53,127 nt of DNA, taken from positions 1 through 53,127 of the forward strand of contig JAZNDP010000100.1 in the NCBI GenBank assembly GCA_045588165.1, in the 5' to 3' direction. This DNA is from Eubacteriales bacterium. Lineage in GTDB: Bacteria; Bacillota; Clostridia; Oscillospirales; CAG-272. The position numbers were made by a program, and so were the translations under genes. Positions within the stretch are counted from its first letter, which is position 1; every line of letters begins with the position of its first letter. The notes beneath the pieces are model-generated. The model was not told where the DNA came from, made no database searches, and saw nothing but the letters and a program-made list of their open reading frames with translations. This document shows positions 29,660 to 30,113 of the stretch, one piece after another.

Positions 29660-29971
29660 ATGGAGCTATCCCAAAAGAATTTCCTCTTAAAGGAACGGGA
29701 AAAGAGTCTTCGTGAGAAGAAGTACTTTTATGCCCATGAATTTACCCTTGCCTTGTGTCAAGAGTTCTTTGACGAGCTCCTCCGCGCTGTTTGTGAACCT
29801 TCAGCTCATGACCCCGAGCTGAAGGAAGTGGAGGAGACGATTGAGTATGGATACGAGGAGCATCTGCTTGTCTTGTCACAATATAATTTTCTGAAGAAGA
29901 TGATTCTTCGGAAGAGAAAAGCAAAATCTTTCTTAGAGAGGCTTGACAAGGGTAGGACAGTTATGTTATAA
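29660..29971 (+). CDS. Hypothetical protein
   Basis: 103-aa ORF with no clear SD. Its 3' end contains a strong promoter-like sequence. Confidence 0.35.
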   Translation: MELSQKNFLLKEREKSLREKKYFYAHEFTLALCQEFFDELLRAVCEPSAHDPELKEVEETIEYGYEEHLLVLSQYNFLKKMILRKRKAKSFLERLDKGRTVML

Positions 29972-29972
29972 T
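29943..29972 (+). promoter_or_regulatory. Strong sigma-A-type promoter facing the right-hand non-coding arm
   Basis: TTGACA (29943-48), 18-nt spacer, TGtTATAAT (TG 29964-65, TATAAT 29967-72). Confidence 0.55.
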
Positions 29973-29989
29973 TATAACTACCCTAAGTA

Positions 29990-30113
29990 GAAGGGGGTTA
30001 TCTGGTGATGACCAGCATTGCGATGATATCACAAATGTGGCGAGCATATGTGTTCATCATGATATGAGCGATGTAGCGAATCATCAGATCACCCCCTTCC
30101 TTTTTGTGTTTTT
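29990..30113 (+). other. 111-nt imperfect palindrome followed by a U-tract (candidate sRNA, type-I-toxin-like unit, single-strand origin or packaging hairpin)
   Basis: Arms GAAGGGGGTTATCTGGTGATGA (29990-30011) and TCATCAGATCACCCCCTTCC (30081-30100), then TTTTTGTGTTTTT (30101-13). SD-like GAAGGGGG occurs on both strands, with a 19-aa ORF (plus strand, 30008-30067) and a 28-aa ORF (minus strand). Confidence 0.7.

What the first reader, a model, noticed from the sequence alone, without database searches (positions are those of the whole stretch)
29943..30113. Self-contained unit of strong promoter, 111-nt imperfect palindrome and U-tract, with mirrored SD-plus-mini-ORFs
TTGACA-18-TGtTATAAT fires into a long hairpin whose arms are GAAGGGGGTTATCTGGTGATGA and TCATCAGATCACCCCCTTCC, followed by UUUUUGUGUUUUU. 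The predicted transcript is about 135 nt. The 5' arm carries an SD (GAAGGGGG) plus GTG/ATG opening a 19-aa hydrophobic ORF (MTSIAMISQMWRAYVFIMI) whose SD would be sequestered by the 3' arm. The minus strand mirrors this with a 28-aa ORF (MIRYIAHIMMNTYARHICDIIAMLVITR). Possible readings are (i) a type-I-toxin-like mRNA or sRNA, or (ii) for an ssDNA replicon, a single-strand origin or packaging-signal hairpin. Ff phages and RCR plasmids place long imperfect palindromes in exactly such non-coding arms. The hexamer TAGCGA inside it equals the ssoA CS-6 consensus, but a 6-mer is weak evidence.
Basis: partly seen in the sequence, partly recalled or inferred. Interest (0 to 1): 0.65.

Follow-up and report, generated by a model that had tools for sequence, protein, structure and literature searches.

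The report
Antisense RNA over a tiny peptide gene
The promoter, hairpin and U-tract are real and recur in related integrated elements of gut Clostridia, but the conserved gene is the 28-residue hydrophobic peptide on the opposite strand, so the unit most likely makes a small antisense RNA that silences that peptide gene, in the manner of a type I toxin-antitoxin pair.

Summary
There is a perfect TTGACA-18-TGn-TATAAT promoter at 29943-29972. A 110-nt imperfect hairpin spans 29990-30099 (RNA -51.6 kcal/mol, z -5.0), followed by a U-tract at 30101-30113. The unit lies in the non-coding right arm of an 18.3-kb integrated element that splits a P-type ATPase gene.

I found 16 homologous units in related elements. 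All keep the extended -10 promoter. All also keep a minus-strand ORF of 25-30 aa, with SD GG(A/G)GGTGA, a 4-6 nt spacer and an ATG or TTG start. The outer stem covaries: 13 of 19 pairs show double changes, against 0 of 500 shuffles.

Best reading: a roughly 135-nt plus-strand antisense RNA fully overlaps a hydrophobic-peptide mRNA whose SD is sequestered. This resembles a type I toxin-antitoxin pair. No transcript or toxicity data exist.

In 14 of 17 relatives, but not in the window, a mirrored copy of the -35 and spacer closes a roughly 210-nt plus-strand hairpin with the TATAAT unpaired. That suggests a promoter specific to single-stranded DNA. The CS-6 idea fails.

The parts
29943..29972 (+). 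Extended -10 sigma-A/sigma-70-type promoter: TTGACA, 18-nt spacer, TGT, TATAAT. It would start the plus RNA near 29979.
   Evidence: 12/12 match with TG. The same TTGACA-17/18-TGn-TATAAT is present in all 17 related units.
29950..29983 (.). Inverted repeat centred on the -10: GGGTAG..GTTATAA | TTATAAC..CTACCC. On the minus-sense RNA it forms a hairpin after the peptide stop codon, followed by UUGU. It cannot be a structure of the plus RNA, which starts inside it.
   Evidence: Read directly from the sequence. Homologous 11-14 bp repeats with locus-specific arms occur in the relatives.
29979..30113 (+). Predicted antisense RNA of about 135 nt. It is a panhandle running from its 5' end to the U-tract and is fully complementary to the peptide ORF and its SD.
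   Evidence: Folds. Model R1 scores 106.6 bits here and 47-141 bits in 15 other loci. Outer-stem covariation is shown.
29990..30099 (.). Long imperfect hairpin. The arms GAAGGGGGTTATCTGGTGAT and ATCATCAGATCACCCCCTTC correspond to anti-SD/SD plus the last and first codons of the peptide gene.
   Evidence: Across relatives 90.6% of cells are paired, against 74.6% in shuffles.
30101..30113 (+). U-tract (TTTTTGTGTTTTT). Together with the hairpin it forms an intrinsic terminator for the plus RNA and for the upstream operon.
   Evidence: A U-rich tail follows the stem in most relatives.
29998..30084 (-). Conserved small ORF, 28 aa: MIRYIAHIMMNTYARHICDIIAMLVITR. It is hydrophobic (GRAVY 0.86) and is the candidate toxin or small membrane peptide.
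   Evidence: 16 of 16 homologues are 25-30 aa and share a motif ..FVN.Y....I(I/C)D(I/L)I..L..I. Codon-position divergence is 0.49/0.30/0.52. Gene callers annotated it in L108 and L113.
30089..30100 (-). Shine-Dalgarno site of the peptide gene (GGAAGGGGGTGA on the minus strand), 4 nt before the ATG at 30084-30082. It is sequestered by pairing with 29990-29999.
   Evidence: The SD and start-codon columns are among the 18 invariant columns of alignment A5; only G16, G18 and G19 are invariant in the 5' arm. The SD is paired in the minus-sense folds of nearly all loci.
30008..30067 (+). It is judged a by-product of the antisense frame.
   Evidence: It is absent in 3 of 16 relatives and 3-49 aa long in the rest. 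It shares wobble positions with the minus frame (reasoning).
30117..30165 (.). Extra 17-bp hairpin (GGACCGGAATTGCCCCC / GGGGGCAATGCAGGTCC), found only in the window. It occupies the place where relatives carry the mirrored promoter spacer.
30179..30184 (-). Remnant of the mirrored -35: CTTGAC on the minus strand, read as TTGACG-18-TGCATT, 8/12. It is the only candidate promoter for the peptide mRNA in the window.
   Evidence: No promoter-like site of 9/12 or better was found on the minus strand between 29624 and 31149.

Best explanation
The unit is a compact sense/antisense gene pair at the end of an integrated mobile element.

- A very strong promoter (29943-29972) makes a plus-strand RNA of about 135 nt. 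This RNA folds into a panhandle and ends at its own hairpin plus U-tract. The same hairpin also terminates the upstream operon.
- The RNA is perfectly complementary to the whole of a minus-strand gene for a 28-aa hydrophobic peptide (29998-30084), including its ribosome-binding site.
- The peptide mRNA also hides its own SD by pairing its 5' end with its 3' end.
- So the peptide is held off twice: by self-sequestration and by an abundant antisense RNA. It would be made only when the antisense RNA falls away or the mRNA is processed. That is the logic of a type I toxin-antitoxin, or addiction/exclusion, module.

Shown here: the anatomy, its conservation, coding on the minus strand, and covariation of the stem.

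Inferred: that both RNAs are made, that the RNA represses the peptide, and that the peptide is toxic or membrane-active.
For: - Promoter, hairpin and U-tract are present and non-random.
- 16 homologous units were found in related elements through the 757-aa ATPase neighbour and through covariance model R1.
- All 17 units (16 homologues plus analogue L072) have TTGACA-17/18-TGn-TATAAT.
- The minus ORF is present in 16 of 16, at 25-30 aa, with SD GG(A/G)GGTGA, a 4-6 nt spacer and ATG in 15 or TTG in 1.
- The SD and start-codon columns are invariant, while the opposite arm is far less conserved.
- Codon position 2 is the most conserved in the minus frame: 0.49/0.30/0.52.
- The peptides share a motif and are hydrophobic, with GRAVY 0.86-1.64.
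- The plus ORF is not conserved.
- The outer stem covaries: 13 of 19 pairs have double changes, with 0 of 500 shuffles reaching this, and the covariation score is 0.513 against 0.13 or less for slid partners.
- The plus-strand fold is stronger than its exact reverse complement in 9 of 10 loci and has more G-U pairs.
- The SD is paired in the minus-sense folds.
- More distant elements carry analogous cassettes at the same place with classic toxin-like peptides: L072 MILLELILIILKIIYTIIIIKKDKKD and L012, 40 aa.
- Type I pairs on Clostridial prophages show the same hallmarks: an RBS close to the ATG, a hydrophobic peptide and an antisense RNA (PMC7699646).
Against: - There is no transcript evidence.
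- No convincing double-stranded-DNA promoter for the peptide mRNA exists in any of the 17 loci. None of the mirrored '-10' hexamers has both A-11 and T-7. The window offers only TTGACG-18-TGCATT.
- The peptide has no Pfam family. It also carries an invariant Asp and other polar residues inside its hydrophobic stretch, so it is not a textbook transmembrane-plus-lysine-tail toxin.
- The type I reading leaves the conserved mirrored promoter arms of the relatives unexplained.
- The covariation was counted on an alignment fitted to the model.
Confidence: 0.5

Rival explanations
1. Strand-state switch, or ssDNA promoter. In the single-stranded plus-strand form of the element, the roughly 210-nt unit folds into one long hairpin. 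Its base re-creates a duplex -35 and spacer, while the perfect TATAAT sits unpaired on the non-template side. RNA polymerase would then transcribe the minus-sense peptide gene, and perhaps prime complementary-strand synthesis, only from ssDNA. After conversion to double-stranded DNA, the same -35/-10 fires the other way and makes the antisense RNA that shuts the peptide off. This extends the best explanation rather than excluding it.
For: - A mirrored copy of the -35, spacer and TG is present in 14 of 17 units at 18-24 of 22-26 identity. It ends exactly at the -10.
- Over 27 positions in 14 loci there are 293 Watson-Crick pairs, 34 G.T pairs on the plus strand and only 6 A.C pairs.
- The spacer pairs covary between loci: own-locus pairing is 14.9 of 17, against 10.4 +/- 2.4 for cross-locus pairing.
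- With DNA parameters, the minimum-energy fold of the plus strand is one long rod with TATAAT in a bulge or internal loop in 13 of 15 loci.
- Unit length is constant at 198-214 nt.
- The peptide gene lacks a usable dsDNA -10 in all 17 units.
- Five units lie directly 3' of a G2P/ORF2-type HUH Rep gene.
- The element has strong positive GC skew on the coding strand.
- There is precedent in Frpo: a stem-loop rebuilds the -35 and -10, is active only on ssDNA, and is switched off by conversion to dsDNA (PMC9849209).
Against: - The window's own unit, and that of L108, lack the outer stem. The window keeps only 6 bp, CTTGAC/GTCAAG.
- The geometry differs from Frpo. Here transcription would run into the hairpin, and in several loci the -10 is a bulge with no template bases opposite it.
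- The G.T bias could come from C-to-T mutation pressure on the plus strand rather than from selection for pairing.
- An ssDNA stage is inferred, not shown. The window's 547-aa Rep candidate has only a weak PHROG hit.
- The three matching sites could instead be operators for an element-specific repressor.
Confidence: 0.2
2. A purely DNA-level signal of an ssDNA replicon, either a packaging signal or a single-strand origin. In this reading the ORFs and the RNA are incidental.
For: - The unit lies at the start of the non-coding arm, right after the last plus-strand gene. The packaging hairpin of Ff phages occupies the same kind of position (established knowledge, not tested here).
- The unit is a long imperfect palindrome with a plus-strand G.T bias.
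- RCR-type Rep genes sit next to it in relatives.
Against: - The invariant SD, 4-6 nt spacer and start codon, and the constant ORF length of 25-30 aa, are not explained by a DNA structure.
- Codon-position pattern indicates coding.
- The CS-6 hexamer is not conserved.
- A second palindrome at 30421-30660 is conserved at the nucleotide level in L106, L109, L116 and L122. It is an equally good or better candidate for an origin or packaging signal.
Confidence: 0.08
3. Nothing more than the intrinsic terminator of the upstream operon, next to a fortuitous or orphan promoter.
For: - The hairpin plus U-tract follows the last plus-strand gene, whose stop codon is at 29969-29971, in the window. It also follows the last gene in every relative.
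- Consensus promoters are common in these genomes.
Against: - A 110-nt stem is far longer than a terminator needs.
- The promoter, the SD, the start codon and the ORF are conserved together across elements whose ATPase is only 30-59% identical.
Confidence: 0.07
4. The plus transcript is itself the toxin mRNA, encoding the 19-aa peptide with its SD hidden by the 3' arm.
For: An SD-like GGGGG lies 7 nt before a GTG/ATG start and is paired with the 3' arm. The peptide is hydrophobic.
Against: - The plus ORF has no start in 3 of 16 relatives and is 3-49 aa long in the others.
- Its apparent conservation follows from sharing wobble positions with the minus frame. In the plus frame, position 1 rather than position 2 would be the most conserved.
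Confidence: 0.03

Closest known systems
Ibs/Sib type I toxin-antitoxin pairs of E. coli (own knowledge)
   Same: A very small hydrophobic peptide gene lies entirely under a fully complementary antisense RNA of about 110-150 nt, encoded on the opposite strand.
   Different: There is no sequence or Rfam/Pfam relation. The host is Gram-positive. Here the whole gene is a panhandle, the peptide gene has no recognisable dsDNA promoter, and the flanks form a larger palindrome in relatives.
Type I toxin-antitoxin pairs of Clostridioides difficile prophages, e.g. CD0977.1/RCd11 (PMC7699646)
   Same: A Clostridial mobile element, a strong RBS a few nucleotides before the ATG, a small hydrophobic peptide, a convergent antisense RNA, and a proposed role in keeping the element.
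   Different: Those toxins are about 50 aa with a lysine-rich tail, and the RNAs overlap only partly. Here the peptides are 25-30 aa with a conserved internal Asp, and the overlap is complete. Toxicity is untested.
Frpo/ssi single-stranded-DNA promoters of conjugative plasmids (Masai and Arai 1997, cited in PMC9849209)
   Same: A stem-loop in one DNA strand rebuilds the -35 and spacer as duplex. The promoter in that direction is not functional once the DNA is double-stranded. It lies on an element with an ssDNA stage.
   Different: - Here the -35/-10 is also a perfect dsDNA promoter that fires the opposite way.
- Transcription would run into the hairpin, where the tiny gene lies.
- The -10 is bulged rather than mismatched in several loci.
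- The window's own copy lacks the outer stem.
Minus-strand origin and packaging hairpin of Ff filamentous phages; ssoA of rolling-circle plasmids (own knowledge; M13 origin as a promoter-like template mentioned in PMC7948647)
   Same: Long imperfect plus-strand hairpins in the non-coding arm after the last gene. They are recognised by host RNA polymerase as promoter-like structures.
   Different: Those signals carry no translated gene and no dsDNA promoter. The ssoA CS-6 motif is not conserved here.

Membership tests
Type I toxin-antitoxin system | Small (<60 aa) hydrophobic peptide gene with its own ribosome-binding site | tested here: met
   The window peptide is 28 aa with GRAVY 0.86. The family ranges over 25-30 aa and GRAVY 0.86-1.64. 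The SD and start codon are invariant.
Type I toxin-antitoxin system | Antisense RNA gene with a promoter and terminator, complementary to the toxin mRNA | tested here: met
   This is met at the sequence level only. There is a perfect extended -10 promoter in 17 of 17 units, a panhandle plus U-rich tail, and full overlap of the ORF and SD. No transcript data exist.
Type I toxin-antitoxin system | Independent promoter for the toxin mRNA | tested here: inconclusive
   A mirrored -35 and spacer are present in 14 of 17 units, but no -10 has both A-11 and T-7. The window has TTGACG-18-TGCATT only.
Type I toxin-antitoxin system | Peptide is toxic when expressed without the RNA, with a labile antitoxin and a stable toxin mRNA | not testable with these tools
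   This needs expression and rifampicin-chase experiments.
Type I toxin-antitoxin system | Homology to a described toxin or antitoxin family (Fst/Ldr, TxpA, BsrG, Hok, Ibs, RatA, Sib and others) | tested here: not met
   No Pfam hit for 8 peptides at E up to 10. No Rfam hit at E up to 1.
Single-stranded-DNA promoter (Frpo-like) | A stem-loop of one strand rebuilds the -35 and -10 of a promoter | tested here: not met
   The window has only a 6-bp CTTGAC/GTCAAG closure. In 13 of 15 relatives the -35 and spacer are rebuilt as duplex with the TATAAT unpaired. So the feature is met for the family but not for this copy.
Single-stranded-DNA promoter (Frpo-like) | The element passes through an ssDNA stage | tested here: inconclusive
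   A G2P/ORF2-type HUH Rep lies next to the unit in 5 relatives. The window's 547-aa candidate Rep has only a weak PHROG hit (E 7e-4) and no Pfam or PDB match. GC skew is positive.
ssoA-type single-strand origin | Conserved CS-6 (TAGCGT/A) in the terminal loop, and an RS-B site | tested here: not met
   TAGCGA at 30075-30080 lies in the stem region, is codons of the minus ORF, and is not conserved in 15 homologues.
Intrinsic (Rho-independent) terminator | A GC-rich stem directly followed by a U-tract, downstream of a gene | tested here: met
   The stem ends at 30099, the U-tract is at 30101-30113, and the upstream ORF stops at 29971. The simple scanner missed it because the loop is too long.

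The most novel reading that the evidence does not exclude
The unit is a switch that reads the strandedness of the element's own DNA.

- On incoming or rolling-circle plus-strand ssDNA, a roughly 210-nt hairpin presents a duplex -35 and spacer and an unpaired TATAAT. Host RNA polymerase then transcribes the minus-sense 28-30-aa peptide gene, and possibly primes the complementary strand.
- Once the DNA is double-stranded, that promoter no longer exists. The same hexamers then drive the antisense RNA that erases the peptide message.

This would be an ssDNA-only early gene in a phage-like or RCR element of Gram-positive gut bacteria. The window would carry a decayed copy of it.
Probability: 0.2. 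Interest if true: 0.85.

Novelty: new variant of a known kind. Interest (0 to 1): 0.6.

Why it matters
The unit defines a conserved non-coding-plus-micropeptide cassette that I found in no Rfam or Pfam family. It sits on a large, almost entirely unannotated family of integrated elements in gut Clostridia: at least 393 loci carry the marker ATPase.

If it is a type I pair, it adds a new peptide and RNA family and a likely maintenance or exclusion function for these elements.

If the mirrored-arm architecture works as proposed, it would extend single-stranded-DNA promoters beyond conjugative plasmids of Enterobacteria. It would also give a directly testable example of one promoter sequence serving two opposite genes according to DNA strandedness.

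The case also shows that, in a palindromic gene, the ORF on the strand with the obvious promoter can be the spurious one.

Tried and rejected
- Rfam at permissive and gathering thresholds gave nothing relevant.
- blastn against the plasmid and phage collections gave no match.
- Protein-seeded scans of viral and metagenome contigs with the single ATPase found no relatives.
- A DNA-pattern scan of viral contigs for promoter + N105-128 + CACCCCCTT gave 7 hits, none homologous.
- A profile of the first three peptides against all small ORFs of 90 loci found nothing beyond the seeds.
- Pfam on the peptides gave nothing. The large protein search refuses queries under 40 aa.
- To identify the element I ran Pfam, PHROG and NCBIfam on its large proteins and PDB sequence and profile searches. 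I also ran AlphaFold2 on the 757-aa ATPase (mean pLDDT 56.7) and Foldseek against PDB (best E 1.3, faint HerA-like hits). All were inconclusive, so 'inovirus-like' remains an inference.
- The ssoA CS-6 idea is rejected.
- I considered that the -10-centred inverted repeat is a structure of the plus RNA. This is rejected because the RNA starts inside it.
- I considered the plus ORF as the gene. This is rejected.
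Full report
**Observation.**
- The promoter is TTGACA (29943-29948), an 18-nt spacer ending in TGT, and TATAAT (29967-29972). The scanner scores it 12/12 with TG.
- The arms 29990-30009 and 30080-30099 are 20 nt long and 90% complementary.
- The plus-strand RNA 29975-30115 folds at -51.6 kcal/mol, against -33.4 +/- 3.6 for dinucleotide shuffles (z -5.0, 0 of 200 as stable). 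The minus strand folds at -42.7 kcal/mol (z -4.0).
- The U-tract is at 30101-30113.
- Both mini-ORFs exist.
- The unit is single-copy in the 1.56-Mb, 133-contig genome. It matches no Rfam family and nothing in the plasmid or phage collections.

**Context.**
- The window is a whole contig. A P-type cation ATPase gene is split into an N-terminal half (11956-12918: E1-E2_ATPase, Cation_ATPase_N) and a C-terminal half (31244-32998: Hydrolase, Cation_ATPase_C).
- An element of about 18.3 kb with lower GC and strong positive GC skew lies between the halves.
- The element carries a large serine recombinase (12938-14329, minus strand), an ImmA-like peptidase and an XRE repressor.
- A long plus-strand operon of orphan proteins follows. 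It includes a 547-aa protein with a weak PHROG 'replication initiation' hit, and a 757-aa protein with weak P-loop NTPase-type hits (AAA_18, PhoH-like).
- The finding sits just after the last plus-strand gene (29660-29971). It opens a non-coding arm of about 0.9 kb that ends at a minus-strand DUF6514 gene and attR.

**Relatives.**
- The 757-aa protein marks a large family. It was found in 9 of 201 genomes of the host family and at 393 or more loci among gut Clostridia MAGs.
- Closer relatives at 46-59% identity came from the large protein collection.
- In every closer relative with enough downstream DNA (L105, L106, L107, L108, L109, L113), and in L016 and L019, the same unit follows the last gene.
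- The window and L016 units also match at the DNA level (nhmmer E about 2e-4 in both directions).
- A covariance model built from nine units recovered them at 81-141 bits.
- The model found seven more in 401 genomes of the host family, and one weak hit in 400 genomes of the rest of the class.
- The left neighbour of the unit is the ATPase in six loci, a G2P/ORF2-type HUH Rep gene in five, and small genes in two.

**Which ORF is real.**
- In 16 of 16 homologous units the minus strand has GG(A/G)GGTGA, a 4-6 nt spacer, ATG (15 units) or TTG (1 unit), and an ORF of 25-30 aa.
- The peptides align with a shared motif (..FVN.Y....I(I/C)D(I/L)I..L..I) and are hydrophobic, with GRAVY 0.86-1.64.
- In alignment A5, the invariant columns in the 3' arm are the start codon and the SD of the minus gene. 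The pairing arm opposite has only three invariant G's.
- The plus and minus frames share wobble positions, so three-base periodicity alone cannot separate them. Pairwise divergence in the minus frame is 0.49/0.30/0.52, with position 2 the most conserved, as expected for coding. In the plus frame the most conserved position would be position 1.
- The plus ORF has no start in 3 of 16 units and is 3-49 aa long in the rest.
- Independent gene callers annotated the 30-aa minus gene in L108 and L113.

**RNA structure.**
- All ten plus RNAs tested fold as a panhandle from the predicted 5' end to the U-rich tail, with z between -4.2 and -6.3.
- RNAalifold predicts 19 outer-stem pairs, 10 of them with compensatory changes.
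- On the 16-sequence model alignment, 90.6% of cells pair, against 74.6% in shuffles. Thirteen of 19 pairs show double changes (0 of 500 shuffles reach this). The covariation score is 0.513, against 0.13 or less for slid partners. The caveat is that this alignment was fitted to the model.
- The plus RNA is more stable than its exact reverse complement in 9 of 10 loci and has more G-U pairs.
- In the minus-sense RNA the same stem sequesters the SD.
- The inverted repeat centred on the -10 then forms an 11-14 bp hairpin after the stop codon, followed by (U)UUGU. This hairpin is a possible weak terminator.
- That repeat cannot be a structure of the plus RNA, because the plus RNA starts inside it.

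**Mechanism favoured.**
- A strong promoter makes an antisense RNA of about 135 nt. It covers the whole peptide gene and its SD.
- The peptide mRNA is also self-sequestered.
- This is the logic of a type I toxin-antitoxin pair, with full overlap as in Ibs/Sib.
- Clostridial prophages are known to carry type I pairs with an RBS close to the ATG and a hydrophobic peptide, and these pairs help maintain the element (PMC7699646).
- More distant members of the element family carry analogous cassettes at the same position with textbook toxin-like peptides: L072 MILLELILIILKIIYTIIIIKKDKKD, and the 40-aa peptide of L012.
- The hairpin and U-tract also serve as the terminator of the upstream operon.

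**What this leaves unexplained, and the more novel reading.**
- In 14 of 17 units a mirrored copy of the -35, spacer and TG lies to the right of the U-tract. It has 18-24 of 22-26 identity and stops exactly at the -10.
- None of the 17 mirrored '-10' hexamers has both A-11 and T-7. The peptide gene therefore has no credible dsDNA promoter.
- Across 27 positions in 14 loci the two arms give 293 Watson-Crick pairs, 34 G.T pairs on the plus strand, 6 A.C pairs and 45 other mismatches.
- The spacer pairs covary between loci: own-locus pairing is 14.9 of 17, against 10.4 +/- 2.4 for cross-locus pairing.
- With DNA parameters, the plus strand of the whole 198-214-nt unit folds into a single rod in 13 of 15 loci. 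The -35 and spacer are duplex, and TATAAT sits in a bulge or internal loop.
- This is the signature of a single-stranded-DNA promoter such as Frpo, which is active on ssDNA and switched off by conversion to dsDNA (PMC9849209).
- On plus-strand ssDNA such a promoter would transcribe the minus-sense peptide gene. On dsDNA the same hexamers make the antisense RNA.
- The caveats are serious:
  - The window (and L108) lacks the outer stem. It keeps only CTTGAC/GTCAAG and carries an extra hairpin at 30117-30165 in its place.
  - The geometry differs from Frpo.
  - The G.T bias could reflect mutation pressure rather than selection for pairing.
  - An ssDNA stage rests on Rep genes in relatives.
  - The three matching sites could instead be operators.

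- The CS-6 hexamer is just the I-R-Y codons of the minus ORF and is not conserved.
- A second palindrome at 30421-30660 is conserved at the nucleotide level in L106, L109, L116 and L122. Three CCGCGTCC repeats at about 30299-30330 lie close by, and similar repeats occur in L012.
- That region is at least as good a candidate for an origin or packaging signal.

**What failed.**
- Attempts to classify the element's large proteins were inconclusive. These were family searches, PDB searches, AlphaFold2 at pLDDT 56.7, and Foldseek with best E 1.3.

**Verdict.**
- The feature is real and conserved, and I found no match for it in Rfam, Pfam, or the plasmid and phage collections.
- It is best filed as a type I-like antisense RNA and micropeptide cassette.
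- The family-wide palindromic promoter architecture is the most interesting loose end.

Noticed in passing
window 12890-12917 and 31225-31247: An element of about 18.3 kb is inserted in a P-type cation ATPase gene, within the PEGLP (TM4) codons. The left flank reads VAVPDG and the right flank PEGLPMM. A large serine recombinase lies at the left end.
   Followed up: partly
window 30421-30660: A second, larger imperfect palindrome (64-nt arms at 30466-30529 and 30568-30631) is conserved at the nucleotide level in L106, L109, L116 and L122. Shared blocks include GATGTGCGTAAA.CTGTGGTAAAC and GTTTTCCGC.G.TTTTCGTGCGTGC, and TTTTCCATAGGAA is shared with L016. It is a candidate origin, single-strand origin or packaging signal.
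   Followed up: partly
window 30299-30330; L012 17390-17470: Three tandem CCGCGTCC-type repeats lie in the window. L012 has three copies of CCCGCGTCCCGC.. with a period of about 30 nt. These are iteron-like sites next to the palindromes.
   Followed up: no
window 29157-29654 and 22108-22629: The 165-aa protein just left of the unit is a paralogue of the 173-aa protein earlier in the same operon. Both hit the same L012 region (tblastn).
   Followed up: no
L072 11342-11560; L012 16623-16840; L015 8395-8690: More distant elements have analogous cassettes at the same position: a consensus promoter, a structured RNA of about 110-150 nt with a terminator, and a convergent small ORF with a strong SD. 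L072 encodes MILLELILIILKIIYTIIIIKKDKKD, and L012 encodes a 40-aa peptide with a hydrophobic C-terminus.
   Followed up: partly
L012 17072-17308; L015 8853-9057: Nested long palindromes of about 205-237 nt lie further right in the non-coding arm. The L015 arms carry TTGTCAAG / TTGACAA.
   Followed up: no
window 6401-6550 (-): A glmS ribozyme/riboswitch scores 46.1 bits, above the gathering threshold, upstream of the minus-strand gene 4522-6510.
   Followed up: no
L016 15901-16977; L107 7250-8164; also L116, L118, L122: A G2P/ORF2-type HUH Rep gene (PF23343) lies directly left of the unit in five relatives. The window instead has a different 547-aa candidate Rep 8 kb away, so the replication module is exchangeable within this element family.
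   Followed up: partly
window 30388-30440 (-): On the minus strand, a hairpin (GATCCGC..GCGGATC) is followed after about 12 nt by long T runs. It looks like a terminator that would stop leftward transcription from the DUF6514 gene before it reaches the unit.
   Followed up: no
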